Source: Vicinamibacteria bacterium
Lineage (GTDB): Bacteria > Acidobacteriota > Vicinamibacteria > Vicinamibacterales > UBA2999
Length of the DNA stretch: 37,838 nt
Direction: 5' to 3'
Assembly: GCA_025924295.1 (NCBI GenBank)
Contig: JAICEG010000001.1
Coordinates: 1 to 37,838, forward strand
The notes beneath the pieces were generated by a model that had not been told where the DNA came from, ran no database searches, and saw only the letters and a program-made list of their open reading frames with translations. Made by a program: the position numbers and the translations under genes. Positions 3,188 through 18,637 of the stretch are shown piece by piece; positions within the stretch are counted from its first letter, which is position 1; every line of letters starts with the position of its first letter.

Positions 3188-3354
3188 GGGAATTCTCCTC
3201 GCCGGGACTCGAGAAGCTCCGCAACGCCGCGCGGACTCGGGCACACATTAGGAAACGCGGCCTTGTCTGTCAACTTCCAGCGCGTTAGGATTCCTGTCAT
3301 CCCTGAGTTGGCGACACTCACCCCGCGCGTCTGTCCCGACGGCGAGACCGCCCA

Positions 3355-5646
3355 TTGAGCACATTTCTTTCGCTCGTGTCGGCGCAGACCCTGGTCACCC
3401 TGTTCCTGGCCGCAGTGCTGTGGTCGCTCTCTCGGCATCTCCGTCGCCAGGAGTTGAATCGCTGGTGGGCGTGGGCGTGGACCGCGTCAGCCATCTTCCT
3501 CGTCGTCTCCCGGATTGCGGCCACACTCGCGCCCGGCTCGCTGCTGCGCAACGGCCTCGTGCTGATCGCCATAACCGCTGGATTCATGACGGTGCCGCTG
3601 CTCGCGTTCGGTGTCGTCAGCTTTTCGTCCCCCCGCGCTATTGGAAAGAGAGTGGCTGTTGCCGGGCTCGGCGCAGCCTTCGTCATCGGTGTACTGACGT
3701 ACACCGCATCCGAGCTCTGGGTCGATCCCATCGCGAGCTTTTCGGTTCGTCAGGGAGCGCGTACTCTGGCGCTCGGCAGTGTTCTGCTGTTCTGCGCCTG
3801 GGTGTTCTTCCAGCGCGCGCGTGTGACCCGGTCGTGGGCAACCACCATCACGGGAATCTCGTGCCTGATTTACGGCCTCAATCAGTTGTTCTTTGCATCC
3901 ACCCTGCTGCGCGCCGCCTACGCGAGTGCGTTCACCGGTGTCGCCGACCGGGCGGTGTTGAACGCCGTCGATCTGATCCTCCTCGACGTTGCATTCACAG
4001 GAGGCATCTGCCTGGGCATGATGCTCCTGCTCGTCGAAGAACATCAACGGGCAGAACGTGCCCTGAACGAGAGCGTCAACCGCGGCCGCGCGGTCTCAGA
4101 AGAAGTCGTGGCGCTGCAGACGGAAATCTTGAAACGGCAGCTGGTTGAACAGGAACTGCGGCGATCCGAGGAAAAGTTTGCATCCGCCTTTCACGCGAGC
4201 CCATGCGCGATGACCATCACCTCCCTCGACGGGGGGCGGTTCGTGGACGTCAACCACAGCTTCGAGCGGCAAATGGGCTACAGCAAGAGCGAGGTGATGG
4301 GGCGCAGCTCGGCGGAGCTCGACATGTGGCCCGTTCTCGCAGAGCGGGCACGCTTCTATACCGATCTGCTCGAACACGGACGTTCGCCGGAACGCGCAGT
4401 GACCCTGCGCACGAAGTCGGGCCGCACGATGTGGGCGATCCTCTCCGCTGAAACGATCACGGTCGAAGGCCAGCGCTGCGTCCTGTCAGTCGGGTTGGAC
4501 GTCACCGCGCGCAGGGAAGCCGAGGCACGACAAGCCGCGATCGTGAAGGCGCTCCCGGACTGGCTCTTTCTCTTGAGCAAAGAGGGCGAGTTCCTCGAGT
4601 TTCACGCCAAAGATCAAAGCCATCTCATGCTGCCGCCCGACCAGTTCATCGGCCGGCGCCTTGGCGACGTTTTGCCACCTGACCTGGCGACACGCATTTC
4701 CGGTTGCGTCGCCGATGCGCTGCAGTCGGATCAACTGGTCACGTTCGAATACTCGCTCCCGATCGGTGATGGCCTGCGATTCTACGAAGTGCGTGCTGTT
4801 CCCTCGGATCGCGATCGCGTGCTGTGCCTGGTGCGCGACATGACCGAACAGAAGCGCGCGCAGCACCGCGCGCGCGAGGTGCAGGACGAGCTCGCGCATG
4901 TCGGACGGGTGATGGCCCTCGGAACATTGACCGGCTCCCTCGCTCACGAGATCAACCAGCCACTGGCCGCGATCACGACCAACGCCCACACCGCACTGGT
5001 CATGCTCGAGGCGGCACAACCCGATGTCACAGAGGTGTGCGCCGCGCTCAACGACATCCAGAGCGACAGCCGCCGCATCGACGATGTCCTGCGCCAGCTG
5101 CGATCGATGCTCAGGAAAGAGCGCCGCGAGTACGACAAGGTCGAGGTCAATTCGCTGGTCACGGAAGTATCGGCGCTCGTCCACAGCGACATGATCCGCC
5201 ATCAGATCGCGCTCGACGTCGCACTGGCGCCGGATCTCAAACACGTCTACTGCGACCGCATCCAGATCCAGCAGGTCGTGCTCAACCTGCTGATGAACGC
5301 GTGCACGGCGGTGCGCTCGGTCGACGCCAGCCGGCGGCAGGTGCGACTCACCACGGCCGCACAGGACGGATGGGTGGTCGTGTCGGTATCGGATCGCGGA
5401 GTCGGGTGTCCGGACGATCAGCTCGACCGGATGTTCGAGCCGTTCTTCACGACGACAACCGATGGAATGGGGCTGGGTCTGTCCATCTGCCGAACGATCA
5501 TCGACGCGCACGGCGGGCTGATCTCGGCGAGACCCAACCCGGACCACGGGCTGACCTGCTGGTTCAGCCTCGCCGCGCTGGCGCCGGTCGAGGAGGCGCC
5601 CGTCAAACAACCATCACGGTCGATGCGGTCGGAGACGTGGAATTGA
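3355..5646 (+). CDS. Membrane sensor histidine kinase (multi-pass N-terminal domain, coiled coil, 2 PAS-like regions, HisKA, HATPase_c)
   Basis: 763-aa ORF. About 6-7 hydrophobic segments in aa 1-228. PAS-like stretches (EEKFASAFHASPCAMTI..., AIVKALPDWLFLLSKEGEFLEFH...). H-box SLAHEINQPLAAI with the His codon at 4945-4947. ATP-lid motifs DRGVGCP and GMGLGLSICRTII. The start is uncertain: TTG at 3355 or a GTG about 20 nt downstream. Confidence 0.85.
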   Translation: MSTFLSLVSAQTLVTLFLAAVLWSLSRHLRRQELNRWWAWAWTASAIFLVVSRIAATLAPGSLLRNGLVLIAITAGFMTVPLLAFGVVSFSSPRAIGKRVAVAGLGAAFVIGVLTYTASELWVDPIASFSVRQGARTLALGSVLLFCAWVFFQRARVTRSWATTITGISCLIYGLNQLFFASTLLRAAYASAFTGVADRAVLNAVDLILLDVAFTGGICLGMMLLLVEEHQRAERALNESVNRGRAVSEEVVALQTEILKRQLVEQELRRSEEKFASAFHASPCAMTITSLDGGRFVDVNHSFERQMGYSKSEVMGRSSAELDMWPVLAERARFYTDLLEHGRSPERAVTLRTKSGRTMWAILSAETITVEGQRCVLSVGLDVTARREAEARQAAIVKALPDWLFLLSKEGEFLEFHAKDQSHLMLPPDQFIGRRLGDVLPPDLATRISGCVADALQSDQLVTFEYSLPIGDGLRFYEVRAVPSDRDRVLCLVRDMTEQKRAQHRAREVQDELAHVGRVMALGTLTGSLAHEINQPLAAITTNAHTALVMLEAAQPDVTEVCAALNDIQSDSRRIDDVLRQLRSMLRKERREYDKVEVNSLVTEVSALVHSDMIRHQIALDVALAPDLKHVYCDRIQIQQVVLNLLMNACTAVRSVDASRRQVRLTTAAQDGWVVVSVSDRGVGCPDDQLDRMFEPFFTTTTDGMGLGLSICRTIIDAHGGLISARPNPDHGLTCWFSLAALAPVEEAPVKQPSRSMRSETWN

Positions 5647-13435: not shown

Positions 13436-13649
13436 AGTCGGTGCCTCAGCTTGGTGGGTGCGTTTGCGATTCGCGCACCGGAGCGTAAAGCACAGTGGCC
13501 AGACTGTCAAACAGGTATATCACCGGCCTTCGCCAAGGCTACGGCCGGCAGGCCCGCCTCTTTGCCAGGCTTCGGGGAGGCAGCCATCTAGCGGCCGGTC
13601 TTTTTAGACCGCCGTGTGCTACAGTCCGCGCTGCCTGACGGAGGGTCAC

Positions 13650-14243
13650 ATGATCGGACGACTGCTCGTCTTCCTCCTCGCCTTTGGCGCCATCACCGCC
13701 ACGGCGCAGCAGCCAGCAGCGCCAGCACAGGGCGCACGTGCTCCCCAGCCACCGAGATTACGCCTGACGAGCCCCGGCTTCCCGGACGGCGCGAGCCTGC
13801 CTCTGCAGTTCACCTGCTACGCCGAGGGCGCCACGCCCGGATCTCCTCCGCTCCGGTGGACGAACGTGCCCAAGGAGACCGCGAGCTTCACGCTGATGGT
13901 GAACGGTCCCGACAATCATCCGGCCAAGGGCATCACCGAAGAGATGTTCTGGGTGCGCTGGAACATTCCACCGACCGCGACTGAGATACCTGCGGGAGTT
14001 CCGGTCGGCGCGTCGCTGCCCGACGGCAGCCGGCAGGTTGCCGGTGGACGCGGCATCGTGGGGTATCGACCGCCATGCGCGCCGGCGGGCGTGGGACCGC
14101 TTCACTATCAGTTCAAGCTGTATGCGCTCGACCAGATGTTGACGCTGCCGCCTGAGGCCACGCGTGCCGACGTCATGAAAGCCATGGACGGCCACATCGT
14201 CGGAACCAGCACCTACTACGCGTTCCTCGACAGGATGCCTTGA
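13650..14243 (+). CDS. Exported YbhB/YbcL-type PEBP (Raf-kinase-inhibitor-like) family protein
   Basis: ORF 13614-14243 trimmed to the ATG at 13650 ([21 protein letters not shown]). PEBP signature GPDNHP...WVRWNIP...[23 protein letters not shown]. Confidence 0.8.
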
Positions 14244-14361
14244 GCATGGTGGATTCTTGATCTTTGAATGTTGATTGGTTGGTGATTGGGCACCAATCAA
14301 GAATCACGAATCCACAAATCGACAACCAATCAAAGATCAAAGAGCGCGCAATCAAGAATGT
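14244..14361. repeat. AT-rich dyad repeat built from TGATTGG / CCAATCA heptamers, copy 1
   Basis: Fills the whole gap between two convergent stops. TGATTGG at 14272 and 14283 faces CCAATCA at 14293 and 14326. An 11-bp outer stem pairs 14257-14267 with 14330-14340. Shares GATTGGTTGGTGATT and GATTCTTGAT with 15961-16105. Much lower GC than the flanks. Confidence 0.8.
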
Positions 14362-15399
14362 TCATCGTTCTTCAGCCCTGGCGCCGCCAAGGATGCCGCG
14401 CACGACGTGATGGTTGCCTTCGTGACACGCGAACTCCTGCAGGCGCTCGTCGGTCGACTTCAATCGAATGAGCGCCGTCCACGGCTTCGTCCACGTCGCC
14501 GGGTCATTGAATGTGAGCTCGTAGTCGAGCGTGGTCGGACTCGTTCGTGTGAAGCGCTCGACGAGATGCAGACCGTCGGCCGATCCCATGAAGAAACTCT
14601 TCGCCGAGAAGTTCGTCGTCTCGACGACGAGCGTGTTTCCTTCCCAGCGCCCACGTGAATCTCCGTTCCATTGACGCAGAGGCGATGGCAGATGCGGGCG
14701 CCCGTCCACCGGGATGACGCGCGCCTCGTGGTTCACCTCGCTCAGGAACACCACGTATCCAGGTCCCTGCACGATCTGGTGATAGCCGGTGTAGTTGATG
14801 TTGCCGGCAATCTTGGGCACGCCCCAGCTGACGCAACGAAGGACGTTGCTCAGATCCTCCGGACCGTTCAGCACTCGAACGGGGGCTGCCGTGGCCGTAG
14901 ACGCTCCACCAAACTGCCACGGCGTCGTCACGTTCGACGCGAGTCCTTCGAGTTGGCGACGACGTCCCTCCGGCGTGACTGGTGGCAGACGCCCATCAGG
15001 AGGATCCGTGATGAGTGAAGTGCGGTTGTCGAATTCCCGCGGCACCATGTTGAACACATTGCCTGTCGCATTCGGATTCTCGACCACGTCGGCATTGGCC
15101 CACAACGCCATGAAGAGGTTGTCACCGGGAATGAAGTCGCTCGCGGGATTGTTGAAGAGCCGCTCGGCTCGCAGTTTCAGCTGAGCGACTTCCGCGTCGG
15201 TCAGGACCTTGCGGTCCGCCAACGCTTTCGGCCGCTCGAGCGGCGTGATGCTGGTATCGGTCCAGACGCCCTGAAGGTCGGGCTGGCCATCCGGCGTGCG
15301 CGGCGGTGTCCCACCCTGCGCGGCCACGGAAACGGGGACCAGAATCGCGATCGCGATTGCGACCGATCGGACGAGCGAGAACGGCTGGCCTTGGAGCAT
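14362..15399 (-). CDS. Secreted protein of unknown function, WEG family subtype C (C3)
   Basis: 345 aa with signal peptide MLQGQPFSLVRSVAIAIAILVPVSVAAQ. Motifs DLQGVW, LRCVSWGVP, PVDGRPH, GRWEGNTLVVETT, FNDPATWTKPW and FACHEGN. Confidence 0.85.
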   Translation of the reverse strand: MLQGQPFSLVRSVAIAIAILVPVSVAAQGGTPPRTPDGQPDLQGVWTDTSITPLERPKALADRKVLTDAEVAQLKLRAERLFNNPASDFIPGDNLFMALWANADVVENPNATGNVFNMVPREFDNRTSLITDPPDGRLPPVTPEGRRRQLEGLASNVTTPWQFGGASTATAAPVRVLNGPEDLSNVLRCVSWGVPKIAGNINYTGYHQIVQGPGYVVFLSEVNHEARVIPVDGRPHLPSPLRQWNGDSRGRWEGNTLVVETTNFSAKSFFMGSADGLHLVERFTRTSPTTLDYELTFNDPATWTKPWTALIRLKSTDERLQEFACHEGNHHVVRGILGGARAEER

Positions 15400-15510
15400 C
15401 GAACTGCCATAGCGTTGACCAAAACCGCTGGGAGGGCAACCCGTGTGGTGCCAGGCCCTGGCCGCGTGTCAGAATGAAGACTCCCGCGAGATGGGATCAC
15501 CGGAGGAGAC

Positions 15511-15960
15511 ATGACGCGAGCGATGCTGGCTGGGGTGTTGGCGCTGACAGTGATAAGTGTGTCGCCACTGGCACAGAGCAAGACCGCAACGGTGGCAATC
15601 TACAAGACGCCAACCTGCGGCTGCTGCTCGCTCTGGGTCAAGCATCTCCAGCAGCACGGCTTCACGACCAAGGTCACCGACATGGACAGCGTGGACGAGG
15701 TGAAGAACACCAACGGCGTCCCGCGCCAGGCGCGCTCGTGCCATACCGGGATCGTCGATGGCTACGTCATCGAAGGACACGTGCCTGCCGCCGACATTCA
15801 GCGACTGCTGAAGGAACGTCCGCGCGGCGTGATCGGCCTTGCCGTACCCGGGATGCCCATCGGATCACCGGGCATGGAAGTGCAGGGCATGTCGGCGCAG
15901 CAGTACAACGTGCTGGCGTTCGACAAGAGCGGACAGACGACTGTCTTTGCGAAACATTGA
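15511..15960 (+). CDS. Exported DUF411 / CopG-like metal-binding protein
   Basis: 149 aa with signal peptide MTRAMLAGVLALTVISVSPLAQS. CxCC motif TCGCCS (codons 15616-15627). Motifs SCHTGIVDGYVIEGHVP and GLAVPGMPIGSPGME are typical of DUF411. GGAGGAG precedes the ATG. Confidence 0.8.
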   Translation: MTRAMLAGVLALTVISVSPLAQSKTATVAIYKTPTCGCCSLWVKHLQQHGFTTKVTDMDSVDEVKNTNGVPRQARSCHTGIVDGYVIEGHVPAADIQRLLKERPRGVIGLAVPGMPIGSPGMEVQGMSAQQYNVLAFDKSGQTTVFAKH

Positions 15961-16105
15961 TGATCGGTGATCTTGGATTATCGATTGGTTGGTGATTAGT
16001 GATTCTTGATGGTTGATTGCGTTCGTTACCAATCACCAATCAACGATCGCCAATCAACAACCAATCACCAATCACAGATCACACATCAACAATTGAGCCC
16101 CAGCG
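15961..16105. repeat. AT-rich dyad repeat built from TGATTGG / CCAATCA heptamers, copy 2
   Basis: Fills the gap between two convergent stops. The right half has five exact CCAATCA units (16029, 16036, 16050, 16061, 16068). The left half has degenerate complementary units (TGATCGG, GATTGGT, TGGTGATT, TGATTG). Shares 15- and 10-nt blocks with copy 1. Confidence 0.8.
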
Positions 16106-16999
16106 TCACCGTCGATAGCGAGACATTTTCTCGAGCACGGCACACACCGCGGCCGTGTCTTCGTCGTGCCTCGTCTTCACTGCGTCAGCGTAGATTGGCG
16201 CGGTCGTCGAGAACAGCGGCGTAGCGCTGCCCACACTCTTCGCGAACTCCGCGATGATCGCCATGTCCTTCTGCCAGGTGCCGAGCGTCATCGTCGCCTT
16301 CCGGTAGCTCCCCTTCACCATCATTGGACCGCGCAACTGGAGGACGCGTGAGCTGCCGGCTCCTTCACTGACCAGCTTCAGGACCCTTGCCGGATCGAGT
16401 CCCGCCTTCATCGCGAGGACAAGTGCTTCGGCCGCGGCCACGTTGTGGATGGCGACGAGCAGGTTGGCGACGAACTTCACTTTCGAGCCGTCGCCAAATG
16501 GGCCAACGTAGTAATGCGCGCGGGTGAAGCCATCGAGCACTCTCGCGACCCGGCGATAGGCTGCACGCGCGCCGCTGGCATAGACGACGATGTCCTTGTT
16601 GCGCGCCTGCGCACCCGTGCCGCTGATGGGACAGTCCAACAGCTCAATGCCACGCGCGCGCAGGGCCCTGCGGGCGCGCTCCTTCACCTCGATCGACAGC
16701 GTGCTGGTTTCAACCACGATCTGTGGCGGACGTTCCGTCTGCGCGAGAGCGGACACGGTCTCGGTCAGCGCATCTGCGGATGGCAGCGAGGTGATGACGA
16801 TACGAGACAGATTACCGAGGTCGGTGCTGCTCTTCGCGGGTGATCCTCCGGCCGCCCGAAGCTGACGCAGGCTCGCGGCCCGGACGTCGTATCCCACAAC
16901 GCGATGGCCCGCACGGATCACATGACCGGCAATTGCCGACCCCATGATCCCCAGACCGATCACCCCGATCGAGGGTGAAGCCGGTGTTTTCGATTTCAT
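16106..16999 (-). CDS. NAD(P)-dependent beta-hydroxyacid dehydrogenase family protein (3-hydroxyisobutyrate dehydrogenase-like), cytoplasmic
   Basis: ORF 16106-17053 trimmed to the ATG at 16999, 4 nt after the upstream stop. Rossmann motif IGVIGLGIMGSAIAG. Mid-domain motif ISGTGAQARNKDIVVYASG. No signal peptide. Confidence 0.8.
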   Translation of the reverse strand: MKSKTPASPSIGVIGLGIMGSAIAGHVIRAGHRVVGYDVRAASLRQLRAAGGSPAKSSTDLGNLSRIVITSLPSADALTETVSALAQTERPPQIVVETSTLSIEVKERARRALRARGIELLDCPISGTGAQARNKDIVVYASGARAAYRRVARVLDGFTRAHYYVGPFGDGSKVKFVANLLVAIHNVAAAEALVLAMKAGLDPARVLKLVSEGAGSSRVLQLRGPMMVKGSYRKATMTLGTWQKDMAIIAEFAKSVGSATPLFSTTAPIYADAVKTRHDEDTAAVCAVLEKMSRYRR

Positions 17000-17003
17000 T
17001 GAA

Positions 17004-17900
17004 TTAGCGGATTGGCGGCGCCCCACAGTTGCGAGTGCATGGCGCGGGCGCAACGTACTTGTCCCTGATCGTCTTTCGATATTCGGGATAGAGCGTCTCC
17101 GCTCGGCCGATCACGACGTCGCGCGGCAGCCCGAACATCTTCGTGAGCTCGTCGACGAACGGGTTCTTCTCGGGCAGGAAGTGCGGCGTGCTCTCACCGA
17201 GCGGACGGCCCTCGAACGTCGAGACGCACGGAGGACCGATCGGCGAGATCGGTGCGGTTGAGAGCTGGAAGCTCTTCGAGATGATGTGCGGCTCGGCAAG
17301 GTAGATCGGATCCTCGATCACCGTCAGCACAGTCAGGATGTCGCCGTGCCGGAAGAAGCGCGAGGTCATCGTCGCCTGATCGCTCGTCGGCGGCCCATTC
17401 TTCCGCAGGAAGCCGGCTTTCATGTGCGTCGTGCGGGCCACGAGCACATTGCCTTCCCACGCGCCGGTGGTGAAACCACCGCGTGTGTGTTCGGCGTACT
17501 TCGAGGGGTGCGGCCGGCCGTCCATCCAGATCGTCATCGGCGCGCGATCCTCCCACGCGCCGATCGTGAACGAGATGGCGGTGCCTTTGACCGGCTCGGT
17601 CTCGCTCCAGATGCGCAGCCCGAAGGGTCCCTGGACGAAGTAGAACTGCGGCCATCCCTCGCACTGCCGCTCGATCATCGCCAACTGCGATTCGTTGTAG
17701 GCGAGTGCGCGCGTTCGCCCTTCATCGTTGAGCGGGAGACCGACGTAGTCGACGGGATACGAGTCACGCGAGATGTCTTCGGTGTTGCGTGCCGCCCACG
17801 ACCCGGTCAGCTCGACCTGGGCGAAGGCGCTCGTAGACCACGCAGCACACAGCAGCGCGACGAGCGCGGCGCGTCGCAACGTCACCATCTGGTCGAACAT
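17004..17900 (-). CDS. Secreted protein of unknown function, WEG family subtype A (A2)
   Basis: ORF 17004-18173 trimmed to the ATG at 17900 (alternative ATG at 17888). Signal peptide (MFDQ)MVTLRRAALVALLCAAWSTSAFAQ. Motifs ELTGSW, RQCEGW, IWMDGRPHP, GAWEGNVLVARTTHMKAGFLRKNGPPTSD, IEDPIYLAEPH and PPCVS. Start overlaps the upstream stop. Confidence 0.8.
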   Translation of the reverse strand: MFDQMVTLRRAALVALLCAAWSTSAFAQVELTGSWAARNTEDISRDSYPVDYVGLPLNDEGRTRALAYNESQLAMIERQCEGWPQFYFVQGPFGLRIWSETEPVKGTAISFTIGAWEDRAPMTIWMDGRPHPSKYAEHTRGGFTTGAWEGNVLVARTTHMKAGFLRKNGPPTSDQATMTSRFFRHGDILTVLTVIEDPIYLAEPHIISKSFQLSTAPISPIGPPCVSTFEGRPLGESTPHFLPEKNPFVDELTKMFGLPRDVVIGRAETLYPEYRKTIRDKYVAPAPCTRNCGAPPIR

Positions 17901-18637
17901 GGCGTGGGATCCCATTTGGAACCGTCCGCTTCCTTCTTGAAGTGCGAGCTGACGATGAACGGCTGCGTGAGGTACTGCGGATCGTCGACCACGGTGGTCA
18001 CGACGAGCAGCTGACCACCGGGCGACGGCGACACATCGAAGTACTCGGTCAGGTTCGCGTTGGCACTGTAGGGAACGCCGTTCTTCCGCAGATAACCAGC
18101 GCGCATGTTCCTGGTCGTCACCGTCAGCGATCCGCTCGTCGGTGCACCACCACGGCCGCCACCCCGCTCCCACTGCGCCGTGGAGTCACCCTGCCACGTC
18201 GGCTTGCCACCAGCGGGCCCGCCGGGCGCAAACCTGAACAGCCGCGTCTGCGTGCCGGCATCGATGTCGACGCGCAGCGTGCTGTCGTCCTGCCACGTGA
18301 TGTTGAGCCGCGCGGGAAGACGCATGACGGCAGCGGCGCCGTACGACTTGCACTGCTCACCCGCCGCTTCGTCCGCGCCCGGGTCCCAGGAGTTGACGAT
18401 CTGAAGCGCTGCCTTGGTAATGGGCACGCCGCGGTAATCACCCTTGGGTGGCGTCACCATCCGATAGCGCCAGTCTTCGTTGATGACTGCCACCCAGTAG
18501 CCGGTGAGATCGATTGGCGCCGATGCCCGCGCCGACGGCGGCGCCGCGCCGCCACCGCGAGCTTGCGCTGCCGCACCGATTGGTGTCAGGCAGTGAATCG
18601 TGAACAGGAGGGCGGTCGACAGCCGGTAGACGTTCAC
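17882..18637 (-). CDS. Secreted protein of unknown function, WEG family subtype B (B2)
   Basis: ORF 17882-18844 trimmed to the GTG at 18637, which overlaps the MBL stop as GTGA. Signal peptide (M)NVYRLSTALLFTIHCLTPIGAAAQA. Motifs DLTGYW, QCKSYG, LRVDIDAGTQTR, AQWE, LTVTTRNMRAGYLRKNGVPYSAN, VDDPQYLTQPF and WDPTPC. Confidence 0.8.
   Translation of the reverse strand: MNVYRLSTALLFTIHCLTPIGAAAQARGGGAAPPSARASAPIDLTGYWVAVINEDWRYRMVTPPKGDYRGVPITKAALQIVNSWDPGADEAAGEQCKSYGAAAVMRLPARLNITWQDDSTLRVDIDAGTQTRLFRFAPGGPAGGKPTWQGDSTAQWERGGGRGGAPTSGSLTVTTRNMRAGYLRKNGVPYSANANLTEYFDVSPSPGGQLLVVTTVVDDPQYLTQPFIVSSHFKKEADGSKWDPTPCSTRW

What the first reader, a model, noticed from the sequence alone, without database searches (positions are those of the whole stretch)
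14244..16105. Two AT-rich dyad arrays of TGATTGG/CCAATCA heptamers at convergent gene ends, bracketing a two-gene module
In a genome segment that is otherwise very GC-rich, the two intergenic gaps 14244-14361 and 15961-16105 are AT-rich. Each has G/T-rich TGATTGG-type units on the left half and complementary CCAATCA units on the right half. Copy 2 has five exact CCAATCA units, two of them in direct tandem.

Each gap can fold into a long imperfect hairpin on either strand. In copy 1, 14257-14267 pairs with 14330-14340, 14275-14281 with 14323-14329, and 14283-14289 with 14293-14299. The two copies share the blocks GATTGGTTGGTGATT and GATTCTTGAT in a different order.

They could be bidirectional terminators of an unusual AT-rich type, a REP/MITE-like dispersed repeat, or arrays of binding sites for a CCAAT-type recognising protein. 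Together they bracket exactly the divergent pair C3 (14362-15399) and the DUF411 gene (15511-15960). This raises the possibility that the pair was inserted as a unit.
Basis: seen in the sequence. Interest (0 to 1): 0.65.

Follow-up and report, generated by a model that had tools for sequence, protein, structure and literature searches.

The report
Heptamer-built palindromic repeats between genes
The two AT-rich gaps are two copies of a family of long hairpin-forming intergenic repeats built from 7-base units in a soil Acidobacteriota bacterium; they come and go one at a time between the same genes in relatives, so they do not mark an inserted gene pair, and they belong to a widespread but poorly understood class of bacterial heptamer-repeat hairpins.

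Summary
Both gaps are 41-43% GC in a 64% GC window. Each is one long imperfect palindrome with a G/T-rich TGATnnn left arm and an A/C-rich nnnATCA right arm, and each has strong 7-nt periodicity. Nothing else like them occurs in the 38 kb.

The idea that a module was inserted as a unit is refuted. Five relatives (C3 protein 83-90% identical) keep the same gene order. Each element is present, trimmed or absent independently of the other.

The copies form a defined family. They are about 120-170 nt long, and each arm holds two ~32-nt blocks of heptamers. The termini resemble CATTGTTGAT...ATCAACAATG, and the GAT/ATC cores are invariant.

The hairpins fill tight gaps that are mostly co-directional or convergent and rarely divergent.

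The closest published relatives are the Xanthomonas GGGAATC inverted heptamer pairs, cyanobacterial STRR and TAACTGA repeats.

The best reading is a REP-like 3'-UTR or intercistronic hairpin element that evolves by slippage and hairpin-tip deletion. Any function as a transcript-end or stop structure is inferred, not shown. I rate it a new variant of a known kind, of moderate interest.

The parts
14244..14361 (.). Element 1: a 118-nt AT-rich imperfect palindrome that fills the gap between the convergent PBP and C3 genes. The foot of the hairpin pairs 14241-14247 (including the TGA stop of the PBP gene) with 14358-14364 (including the TCA that is the stop of C3 on the other strand).
   Evidence: GC 0.415. 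Inverted repeats I1-I10. Single hairpin in the MFE fold, RNA z -4.0/-2.4 and DNA z -4.0/-3.9. Full-length nhmmer match to the family profile at 14242-14366, 97 bits. Orthologous copies in L157, L159 and L160.
14244..14289 (+). Element 1, G/T-rich 5' arm made of TGATnnn-type units (TGATCTT, TGAATGT, TGATTGG, TTGG, TGATTGG). It is about 36 nt shorter at the hairpin tip than its orthologue in L157.
   Evidence: Composition A7 C3 G17 T20, lag-7 identity 0.60. Alignment with L157 shows the tip deletion.
14293..14361 (+). Element 1, A/C-rich 3' arm: two ~33-nt blocks of nnnATCA units (ACCAATCA AGAATCA CGAATCC ACAAATCG ACA | ACCAATCA AAGATCA AAGAGCG CGCAATCA AGA).
   Evidence: Direct-repeat family D1. 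Composition A33 C19 G10 T9 for 14291-14361. Nearly identical to the L157 orthologue.
15961..16105 (.). Element 2: a 145-nt AT-rich imperfect palindrome that fills the gap between the convergent DUF411 and dehydrogenase genes. The arms are 15956-16019 and 16030-16093, with a 10-nt tip at 16020-16029.
   Evidence: GC 0.434. Inverted repeat I1 with 64-nt arms, 77% complementary. RNA z -6.7/-7.1 and DNA z -5.4/-5.1. nhmmer match at 15953-16099, 122 bits. Orthologues in L159 and L160.
16028..16091 (+). Element 2, 3' arm: two 32-nt higher-order blocks (16028-16059 and 16060-16091, 84% identical). Each block is ACCAATCA + three nnnATCA-type units + ACA. The 11-nt step ATCAACAACCAATCA is the boundary between the blocks.
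   Evidence: the repeat finder D1. TRF period 32, 2.0 copies, 84% matches, and period 7, 9.9 copies.
13614..14243 (+). Flanking gene: PBP/YbhB-family (Raf kinase inhibitor-like) protein. Its TGA stop abuts element 1.
   Evidence: Pfam PF01161 at 3e-25, TIGR00481.
14362..15399 (-). Flanking gene 'C3': a 345-aa hypothetical protein with a hydrophobic N-terminal stretch that I read as a likely signal peptide. It has no Pfam or NCBIfam family but more than 8000 homologues. It is conserved in synteny whether or not the elements are present.
   Evidence: Synteny.
15511..15960 (+). Flanking gene: DUF411 protein. Its TGA stop is followed directly by the first TGAT units of element 2 (catTGATGATCGGTGATC).
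   Evidence: Pfam PF04214 at 7e-28. Sequence.
16106..17053 (-). Flanking gene: NAD-binding beta-hydroxyacid dehydrogenase (HIBADH / tartronate semialdehyde reductase-like).
   Evidence: PF03446 and PF14833. NCBIfam hits are below the equivalog cut-offs.

Best explanation
**What it is (well supported).** The two gaps are two copies of one family of roughly 120-170-nt AT-rich imperfect palindromes in a soil Vicinamibacterales (Acidobacteriota) genome.
- On either strand the 5' arm is a run of TGATnnn heptamers and the 3' arm is the complementary nnnATCA run.
- Each arm consists of two ~32-nt blocks (8+7+7+7+3 nt).
- The termini resemble CATTGTTGAT...ATCAACAATG.
- The elements are independent intergenic insertions that fill gene-to-gene gaps from stop codon to stop codon.
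- They are inherited at orthologous sites and are trimmed at the hairpin tip, reduced to half-arms, or lost one by one. They are not the borders of an inserted gene pair.
- They are a lineage-specific family within a broad class of intergenic hairpins whose stems are tandem heptamers. That class is especially common in Acidobacteriota and has been published for Xanthomonas.

**How it most likely works (inferred, not shown).** It works like a REP element.
- It is transcribed as the first bases of the 3' UTR of both convergent genes, and as an intercistronic spacer at co-directional sites.
- There it folds into a 45-65-bp imperfect hairpin that marks or protects the transcript end and hinders transcription from running antisense into the neighbouring gene.
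- TGA triplets spaced 7 nt apart put stop codons in all three frames in front of ribosomes arriving from either side.
- The heptamer arrays change by replication slippage. The palindrome is kept by intra-strand templating and eroded by tip deletions.
- The invariant GAT/ATC cores and the fixed arm order suggest an additional sequence-specific constraint: a binding protein or a copying enzyme that has not been identified.
For: **Anatomy and significance:**

**Family with a defined build.** Nine copies from four different intergenic sites align end to end (A3, 64% column identity, invariant GAT/ATC cores). Full-length profile hits above 97 bits occur only in this lineage. In this lineage every island of 60 nt below 45% GC in the window, L157, L159 and L160 is such an element or a fragment of one, and so are three of the four in L001.

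**Independent presence and absence with conserved synteny**.
- Site 1 (PBP|C3): present in window, L157, L159, L160; absent in L001, L163.
- Site 2 (DUF411|dehydrogenase): present in window, L159, L160; absent in L157, L001.
- Site 3 (upstream of the dehydrogenase start): present in L160, L001, L157; absent in window, L159.
- Site 4 (upstream of the PBP gene start): present in L160 only.

**Orthologues stay alignable and all stay hairpins.** z-scores range from -3.3 to -8.8 in nine copies, although the host proteins are only 85-90% identical.

**Tip deletions.** The window's element 1 lacks about 36 nt of the tip compared with L157. A soil metagenome contig skips 15976-16032 inside element 2.

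**The wider class.**
- Contexts: 72 co-directional, 26 convergent, 9 divergent. Typically only 0-30 nt are left on either side, and about 30 neighbouring ORFs end inside the array at offsets -3, -10 or -17.
- Arm order is fixed: 128 forward against 1 reverse, and the reverse case is an artefact.

**Stop codons.** Stops occur in all three frames within 35 nt after each of the four flanking stop codons.

**Literature.** Xanthomonas GGGAATC heptamer repeats include 70-75 inverted pairs; they lie close behind the upstream ORF, 16% between convergent and 7-8% between divergent ORFs, and most are transcribed (PMC4692102). Heptamers are the most over-represented long SSR in bacteria (PMC4679880).
Against: - **No direct evidence for any RNA-level role.** Soil metatranscriptome contigs are too sparse to show 3' ends.
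- **Not canonical terminators.** The hairpins lack a U-tract and a G+C-rich stem, and the terminator scan does not call them.
- **A counter-example in the wider class.** In the one class member with isolate RNA data (Chryseobacterium, L090), a canonical terminator lies upstream of the heptamer hairpin. An adapter-tagged contig in one of the four runs (X48) ends at 4227, before the hairpin.
- **Little sign of selection on pairing.** Only one compensatory pair was found per orthologue set. Conservation sits in the GAT/ATC cores rather than in pairing as such. That fits sequence recognition or a mutational process as well as RNA structure.
- **The stop-codon idea is not general.** CTGAT-type heptamer hairpins in viral contigs have the stops in the 3' arm.
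- **No evidence of mobility.** No target-site duplication, no near-identical copies at different sites and no partner transposase were found.
- **Copy number is unknown.** There are 0 copies in 46 kb from two more distant relatives.
Confidence: 0.55

Rival explanations
1. The elements are a neutral or selfish by-product with no host function. Heptamer microsatellites arise by polymerase slippage (heptamers are the favoured long SSR in bacteria). They become palindromes by fold-back or template switching, or spread as MITE/REP-like selfish DNA. They survive only where they do no harm, in gene-to-gene gaps away from promoters.
For: - Gain, loss and trimming are rapid between close relatives.
- Half-arm remnants at site 2 in L001 and L157 contain only TGAT units.
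- The centre of the hairpin varies from copy to copy within one genome, for example among the Pyrinomonadaceae loci.
- Deletion variants occur within soil populations.
- Several unrelated heptamer arrays with other units occur in the same order: GTGGAAA, AGGTCAA, GTAGGCA, GAGTTGG.
- An IS3-type element inserted into one hairpin loop.
- Heptamer hairpins with many different units exist: TAGT type 39 loci, GTAT 5, TATG 2 in viral contigs.
- The slippage hypothesis is in the literature.
Against: - Arm order is fixed, whereas random fold-back should give both orders: 128 against 1 in the genome loci, and 39 against 1 for TAGT/ACTA.
- The GAT/ATC cores are invariant while the three spacer bases vary, which is unlike young slippage arrays with identical units.
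- The 2 x 32-nt block build and the termini are conserved across four sites.
- Orthologues remain alignable although host proteins are only 85-90% identical.
- No target-site duplication, no near-identical paralogues and no parent transposase were found.
Confidence: 0.3
2. The elements are arrays of binding sites on double-stranded DNA for a sequence-specific protein that reads GAT-cored heptads in direct and inverted orientation. Candidates would be a ribbon-helix-helix protein of the omega/pSM19035 kind (heptad WATCACW), or a nucleoid-associated protein attracted to AT-rich islands. On this reading the elements act as chromosome-organising, silencing or barrier sites rather than as RNA hairpins.
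For: - Conservation is concentrated in the GAT/ATC cores at 7-bp spacing, not in base-pairing.
- Several units are exact or near-exact omega-type heptads: AATCACA, AATCACC, GATCACA at 16064-16084 (omega heptad consensus from my own knowledge and from the title of 10.1101/2022.05.29.493902).
- A 32-bp block is close to three helical turns (inference).
- These are the only AT-rich islands in a 64% GC region.
Against: - No regulator gene is associated with the elements.
- The sites lie at gene 3' ends and between cistrons rather than at promoters, and no promoter-like sites were found.
- Units differ between lineages and the TGAT core is not universal in the class.
- The perfect dyad over 60 nt per arm and its maintenance in all copies are not needed for heptad binding.
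- The IHF and DnaA consensus sequences do not fit (my inspection).
Confidence: 0.15
3. The two arrays would be the borders (recombination sites or terminal repeats) of a two-gene cassette, C3 + DUF411, that was inserted as a unit.
For: Only the geometry supports it: the arrays bracket exactly these two genes.
Against: - The four-gene order is the same in L001, L157, L159 and L160, and in the contig of P0002.
- L001 has both genes with neither full element. L157 has both genes with only one element.
- The same family occurs at two further sites outside the pair.
- There is no integrase or transposase next to the pair.
Confidence: 0.02

Closest known systems
Xanthomonas GGGAATC heptamer repeats in inverted pairs (Rehm et al. 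2015, PMC4692102), and heptameric SSRs in general (Mrazek et al. 2007 as cited there)
   Same: - Tandem heptamers in intergenic DNA of a GC-rich genome.
- Often arranged as two arrays in inverted orientation that can form a stem-loop (70-75 cases per genome).
- Lying close behind the upstream ORF, more often between convergent than divergent genes.
- Length and sequence vary between close relatives at the same site (compared).
   Different: - The unit here is TGATnnn with variable spacer bases, AT-rich and without G-runs, so no G-quadruplex can form.
- The arrays are organised in 32-nt blocks with conserved termini and a roughly constant total length, giving a defined element rather than a free-running SSR.
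- The host is Acidobacteriota, for which I found no published description.
REP/BIME elements (repetitive extragenic palindromes) of Enterobacteria and Pseudomonas
   Same: - Extragenic imperfect palindromes found at 3' ends of genes and between cistrons.
- They avoid promoter regions.
- They vary in presence between strains.
- They are targets of IS insertion into the loop. IS1397/ISKpn1 do this in REP (my knowledge); an IS3-type remnant sits in the loop of the site-3 element here.
   Different: - REPs are 20-40 nt with a conserved GTAG or CGTC head and are linked to RAYT transposases (PMC3733652, PMC2817692 abstracts).
- These elements are 120-170 nt, built of heptamers, have no GTAG/CGTC head, and no RAYT link could be tested.
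Cyanobacterial STRR and TAACTGA heptamer repeats (Mazel 1990 as cited; MacGregor 2015, PMC4679880)
   Same: Lineage-specific tandem heptamers, overwhelmingly intergenic, of unknown function. TAACTGA equals the TGATAAC unit in another register, and TGAT-type heptamer arrays and dyads also turned up in cyanobacterial loci (L065, L101).
   Different: - Those are mostly direct arrays. Only one inverted set was found among 170 in the Beggiatoa genome, and many lie just upstream of start codons.
- The elements here are obligatory dyads.
MITEs (miniature inverted-repeat transposable elements)
   Same: Size of 100-200 nt, AT-rich, the whole element is an inverted repeat, dispersed in intergenic DNA, with presence/absence polymorphism between relatives.
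   Different: - No target-site duplication at filled versus empty sites.
- Paralogues are only about 64% identical.
- No parent IS with matching ends was found. Two other loci carrying homologues of the IS3 remnant (L210, L211) have no heptamer arms.
Rho-independent (intrinsic) bidirectional terminators
   Same: A hairpin placed between convergent genes that reads as a hairpin on both strands.
   Different: The stem is AT-rich, 45-65 bp long and imperfect. There is no U/A tract on either side, and the terminator scan does not detect it.

Membership tests
Intergenic heptamer-repeat (7-nt SSR) hairpins / inverted heptamer pairs | Arms made of tandem 7-nt units | tested here: met
   Lag-7 identity is 0.52-0.62 against 0.32 in shuffles, reached by at most 1 of 2000 shuffles. 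TRF finds period 7 with 9.9 copies. The three-unit ATCA pattern occurs 24 times against 1.4 expected.
Intergenic heptamer-repeat (7-nt SSR) hairpins / inverted heptamer pairs | Two arrays of complementary units in inverted orientation that form one stem-loop | tested here: met
   64-nt arms that are 77% complementary. Single hairpins in the MFE folds, z -4 to -7.
Intergenic heptamer-repeat (7-nt SSR) hairpins / inverted heptamer pairs | Intergenic, close behind ORF ends, rare between divergent genes, variable between close relatives | tested here: met
   The window copies run from stop codon to stop codon. Class contexts are 72 co-directional, 26 convergent and 9 divergent. Orthologous sites vary.
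REP/BIME | Short (20-40 nt) palindromic unit with a conserved GTAG or CGTC head | tested here: not met
   The elements are 118-176 nt. The termini are CATTGTTGAT-like, with no GTAG/CGTC head.
REP/BIME | High copy number (more than 100 per genome) | not testable with these tools
   Only fragments of the genome are available: 2 copies in 37.8 kb, 4 in 13 kb of L160, and 0 in 46 kb of two more distant relatives.
REP/BIME | Association with a RAYT (Y1) transposase | not tested
   No whole genome was available to scan. I did not run a domain search over the rest of the window's ORFs, so a transposase there is not excluded.
REP/BIME | Extragenic location at 3' ends or between cistrons | tested here: met
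MITE | Target-site duplication flanking the element | tested here: not met
   Comparison of filled and empty sites at sites 1, 2 and 3 shows no duplicated flank.
MITE | Near-identical copies at different loci, and a parent IS with the same ends | tested here: not met
   Paralogues show about 64% column identity. The IS3-type remnant lies inside a hairpin loop, and its homologues elsewhere lack heptamer arms.
Intrinsic terminator | G+C-rich stem followed by a U-tract | tested here: not met
   Stems are 41-43% GC, no T-run follows either arm, and the scan does not call them.
Intrinsic terminator | RNA 3' ends at the hairpin in vivo | tested here: inconclusive
   Soil metatranscriptome contigs are too sparse. 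In the Chryseobacterium class member the contigs break at the repeated arms, and a canonical terminator lies upstream.
omega-type (RHH) heptad operator / centromere | Contiguous 7-bp heptads WATCACW in direct or inverted orientation, at promoters or parS, next to the regulator gene | tested here: not met
   Some units match (AATCACA, AATCACC) but most do not. The location is at gene 3' ends, with no promoter-like sites and no RHH gene among the six ORFs checked around the elements.
Integron attC / gene-cassette border | The cassette (gene plus site) is present or absent as a unit, with sites in one orientation after each gene | tested here: not met
   The genes are present in all relatives regardless of the elements.

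The most novel reading that the evidence does not exclude
Heptamer-stem hairpins may be a distinct, phylum-spanning kind of genetic element, most abundant in Acidobacteriota, that is made or maintained by a dedicated sequence-specific factor. That factor could be a heptad-reading DNA/RNA-binding protein or a copying enzyme.

Three findings point this way, and plain slippage and plain RNA-structure selection do not explain them:
- the invariant GAT cores;
- the fixed order of the arms, G/T-rich 5' and A/C-rich 3' on both strands;
- the 32-nt block build, about three helical turns.

The element would act as a two-way insulator between neighbouring genes, stopping both transcription and translation.
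Probability: 0.15. Interest if true: 0.75.

Novelty: new variant of a known kind. Interest (0 to 1): 0.45.

Why it matters
Heptamers are the most over-represented long microsatellite in bacteria, yet nobody knows why, and the only detailed studies concern Xanthomonas, cyanobacteria and Beggiatoa.

This finding, together with the scan it prompted, shows three things:
- Hairpins with heptamer stems are common across Acidobacteriota, a dominant and poorly studied soil phylum.
- Each lineage has its own unit and a fixed arm order.
- At least one lineage has a defined, block-built element of about 145 nt.

If these hairpins set transcript ends or insulate neighbouring genes, they would matter for annotating operons and 3' UTRs in such genomes. 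If they are selfish or mutational by-products, they are a clean system for studying how palindromes arise, persist and decay.

For annotation of this window, the practical result is negative. The C3-DUF411 pair is not a mobile module.

Tried and rejected
- **Rfam.** The whole window was searched at gathering thresholds, with no match.
- **Promoter and terminator scan.** No promoter-like site was found, and the elements are not called as terminators.
- **Cassette idea.** Rejected by synteny.
- **IS3-type remnant as parent of the elements.** An rve_3 remnant lies between the arms of the site-3 copy in L001 and L157. All of its listed homologues are short rve_3-only ORFs of 47-125 aa (one also has PF00665), and the two other loci I examined have no heptamer arms. 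So it was an IS insertion into the hairpin loop.
- **TGAT as a universal core of the class.** Rejected. Control scans with other tetramers gave 39 loci (TAGT..ACTA), 5 (GTAT) and 2 (TATG) in viral contigs.
- **'Stop codons in the 5' arm' as a general rule.** It holds for the TGAT and TAGT families (39 against 1 for TAGT orientation). It fails for CTGAT-type hairpins, where 19 of 22 have stops only in the 3' arm.
- **A one-arm pattern (ATCRACAACNNATCANNNATCA) in viral contigs.** It returned only chance hits in coding DNA.
- **Exact two-block pattern in metagenome contigs.** It returned 0 hits, and did not return the window or its close relatives (L157/L158) either, so that collection or the pattern was too narrow.
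- **RNA evidence.** Soil metatranscriptome contigs are too sparse. Chryseobacterium RNA-run contigs break at repeated k-mers and may contain DNA.
- **Covariation.** There was only one compensatory pair per orthologue set, so there is no statistical support for RNA-structure selection.
- **Taxonomy from local tblastn against the genome loci.** This was uninformative. It was settled instead by a 100%-identical RND pump that NCBI names as Vicinamibacterales.
- **Density estimate.** Two unbiased 23-kb loci of more distant relatives hold no copy.


Full report
**1. Observation**

The two gaps are real and unusual for this window.
- GC is 0.415 (14244-14361) and 0.434 (15961-16105) against 0.642 overall. 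No other 100-nt stretch of the 37.8 kb falls below 48%.
- CCAATCA/TGATTGG occurs 11 times against 3.3 expected, and nine of these are in the gaps.
- Each gap folds as one long imperfect hairpin on either strand, far better than shuffled sequence. This holds with RNA parameters (z -4.0/-2.4 and -6.7/-7.1) and with DNA parameters (z about -4 and -5).

The real unit is a 7-nt period with a TGAT core on the left arm and ATCA on the right.
- Lag-7 identity is 0.52-0.62 against 0.32 in shuffles.
- The three-unit ATCA pattern occurs 24 times against 1.4 expected, with 22 of the 24 in the gaps.
- The left arms are G/T-rich and the right arms A/C-rich.
- The heptamers are grouped in ~32-nt blocks (8+7+7+7+3). 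The two blocks of the right arm of copy 2 are 84% identical. The 'ATCAACAACCAATCA' step is the block boundary.

**2. Host and genes**

A 1051-aa RND pump encoded in the window is 100% identical to an NCBI protein labelled Vicinamibacterales bacterium. Near-identical DNA is present in many soil metagenomes.

The genes around the elements are:
- a PBP/YbhB-family protein (+);
- a 345-aa protein of an uncharacterised but very large family, with a hydrophobic N-terminal stretch that I read as a likely signal peptide (-);
- a DUF411 protein (+);
- a beta-hydroxyacid-type dehydrogenase (-).

Both elements lie between convergent stop codons. The hairpin foot of element 1 pairs the two stop codons with each other.

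**3. The module idea fails**

Contigs of relatives whose C3 protein is 90% (L157/L158), 87% (L001, L159) and 85% (L160-L162) identical keep the order dehydrogenase | DUF411 | C3 | PBP. The 83% relative L163 keeps C3 and the dehydrogenase but has two unannotated genes where DUF411 would lie, and its gene next to C3 is cut off by the contig end.
- At the PBP|C3 gap the element is present in the window, L157, L159 and L160. It is absent in L001 (13 nt) and L163 (20 nt).
- At the DUF411|dehydrogenase gap it is present in the window, L159 and L160. It is reduced to a few TGAT units in L001 (37 nt) and L157 (25 nt).
- A third site, just upstream of the dehydrogenase start codon, carries a copy in L160, L001 and L157. 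In the window and L159 that spacer is only 4 nt.
- A fourth copy, upstream of the PBP gene, exists only in L160.

So the genes are ancestral and the hairpins vary independently.

Orthologous copies are clearly homologous. The right arm of the window's copy 1 is almost identical to that of L157, and the window copy lacks about 36 nt at the hairpin tip. Soil metagenome contigs of the same strain carry both elements. One contig skips 15976-16032, a tip deletion in element 2. Another joins 14241 to 14368, which would remove the whole of element 1. That junction would delete both stop codons, so I treat it as a possible artefact.

**4. A defined family**

- Nine copies from four sites align over their full length, with 64% column identity.
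- The consensus is CATTGTTGATTGnTGATCTTTGATTnTTGATTnGTTGGTGATTG...loop...AACCAATCAACAATCAAGAATC...ATCAAnAATG, with invariant GAT/ATC cores.
- A profile built from them gives full-length hits only in this lineage. Other heptamer hairpins match it only in part.
- All nine copies fold as single hairpins, with z from -3.3 to -8.8.
- In the orthologue alignments the conserved columns are mostly the cores. The three spacer bases vary and often break pairs, and there is only one compensatory pair per set.
- No target-site duplication is visible at filled versus empty sites.
- In L001 and L157 the site-3 copy has a ~360-nt frameshifted remnant of an IS3-type transposase (rve_3, E = 5e-9) in its loop. 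Two other loci carrying homologues of that remnant (L210, L211) have no heptamer arms. So this was an IS insertion into the hairpin and not a parent element.

**5. A much wider class**

I scanned one genome for each of 185,579 species with TGATnnnTGATnnnTGAT-N20-50-ATCAnnnATCAnnnATCA. By my calculation fewer than one match is expected by chance.
- 72 of the 120 loci are Acidobacteriota. The rest include Gemmatimonadaceae, Luteimonas/Thermomonas, Burkholderiales, Verrucomicrobia, Bacteroidota, Planctomycetota, Chloroflexota, Nitrospira and cyanobacteria.
- Units are lineage-specific:
  - Pyrinomonadaceae/Blastocatellia: TGATRAG
  - Acidobacteriaceae/Terriglobia: TGATTGC/TGATTGT
  - Vicinamibacterales: TGATTCT/TGATTCA/TGATTCG
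  - Thermoanaerobaculia: TGATCGG
- All are hairpins with heptamer stems and a copy-specific centre.
- By a simple ORF model they lie in 72 co-directional, 26 convergent and only 9 divergent gaps. They nearly fill those gaps, and about 30 neighbouring ORFs end inside the array at offsets -3, -10 or -17.
- Within these genomes the arm order is fixed. There are 128 forward clusters, 8 of which were not used for ascertainment, against one reverse cluster that is an artefact.
- Control scans of viral contigs show the class is not tied to TGAT. TAGT...ACTA gave 39 loci against 1 for the reverse order, GTAT gave 5 and TATG gave 2. For TGAT both orders occur (19 against 30). The reverse order belongs to CTGAT-type units.

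**6. Literature**

- Heptamers are the most over-represented long SSR in bacteria, and polymerase slippage has been proposed as the cause.
- Xanthomonas has about 190 GGGAATC arrays per genome, with 70-75 inverted pairs able to form stem-loops. They lie close behind the upstream ORF, 16% between convergent and 7-8% between divergent genes. They vary between close relatives and are mostly transcribed. They were studied as G-quadruplexes (PMC4692102).
- Cyanobacterial STRR and the TAACTGA repeats of Beggiatoaceae are mostly direct arrays (PMC4679880).
- I found no description of such elements in Acidobacteria.

**7. Mechanism**

*Shown:*
- the palindromic, heptamer-block anatomy;
- family membership;
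- vertical inheritance with independent loss, trimming and possibly gain;
- a bias towards non-promoter gaps across the class;
- stop codons in all three frames within 35 nt after each of the four flanking stop codons.

*Inferred:* the element is transcribed into the 3' UTRs and acts like a REP hairpin, as a transcript-end or protective structure and a barrier to antisense read-through. It evolves by slippage and palindrome-templated repair, with tip deletions.

*Against a simple terminator:*
- there is no U-tract and the stems are AT-rich;
- many class members sit 4-30 nt in front of the next co-directional gene;
- in the Chryseobacterium example a canonical terminator precedes the hairpin.

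*Not explained:* the conserved cores, the fixed arm order and the 32-nt blocks are not accounted for by slippage or RNA pairing alone. They keep open a sequence-specific factor.

RNA data for the window's organism are too sparse to decide.

**8. Verdict**

The cassette interpretation is refuted. The 'dispersed REP/MITE-like hairpin repeat' reading is supported in the broad sense, while REP and MITE membership in the strict sense both fail on defining features.

It is a new variant of the known but little-studied class of heptamer-repeat hairpins. Interest is moderate: ordinary as a kind of thing, but the breadth in Acidobacteriota, the fixed polarity and the block architecture are new and testable.

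Noticed in passing
L001:8076-8433 and L157:~3280-3520 (relatives; no counterpart in the window): A frameshifted remnant of an IS3-type transposase C-terminus (Pfam rve_3, E = 5e-9) sits in the loop of the hairpin element upstream of the dehydrogenase gene. L160 has the same hairpin without it. This recalls the loop-specific insertion of IS1397/ISKpn1 into REPs (my knowledge). All listed homologues of the remnant are short rve_3-only ORFs of 47-125 aa (one also has PF00665).
   Followed up: yes
window:14604-14652 (inside the C3 gene): This ~45-nt stretch encodes RWEGNTLVVETTNFS. It has about 200-fold higher contig depth than its surroundings in soil metagenomes (about 2400 against 10) and is also raised in metatranscriptomes, with many unrelated loose ends. 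The motif is conserved at the nucleotide level across a very large, unnamed soil protein family (more than 8000 homologues, no Pfam or NCBIfam model).
   Followed up: partly
L156:44-106 and 5096-5278; L134:7016-7076; L163:4203-4301: Other Vicinamibacterales loci carry further heptamer arrays and hairpins with quite different units: AGGTCAA-like, GTGGAAA/TTTCCAC, GTAGGCA, and GAGTTGG with CTTCGTG. Several heptamer families therefore coexist in this order.
   Followed up: no
window:14241/14368 and 15975/16033: Soil metagenome contigs join 14241 to 14368, skipping the whole of hairpin 1 and both stop codons (run X3). Others join 15975 to 16033, skipping the tip of hairpin 2 (run X8). Unitigs break at the same points in other runs. 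These are either population variants or hairpin-induced library or assembly artefacts.
   Followed up: partly
L212-L250 versus L257 (viral contigs): TAGTnnn...nnnACTA heptamer hairpins (commonest unit TAGTGGT) occur in 39 viral-contig loci. The opposite arm order occurs in 1. This is a strong polarity with the G/T-rich, stop-bearing arm first.
   Followed up: partly
L090:4180-4330 (Chryseobacterium cucumeris): A canonical intrinsic terminator (AAACCGCC...GGCGGTTT followed by a T-run) lies directly upstream of a TGATAAT/ATCATTC heptamer hairpin. An RNA-run contig from one run (X48) ends with adapter sequence at 4227, inside or just after that terminator and before the hairpin.
   Followed up: partly
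window:16106-17053 and 17004-18173: The dehydrogenase ORF as listed overlaps the upstream ORF by 50 nt. Comparison with L159 and L001 places the real start at the ATG 4 nt after the upstream stop (TAAttcaATG), so the listed TTG start at 17053 is probably too far upstream.
   Followed up: partly
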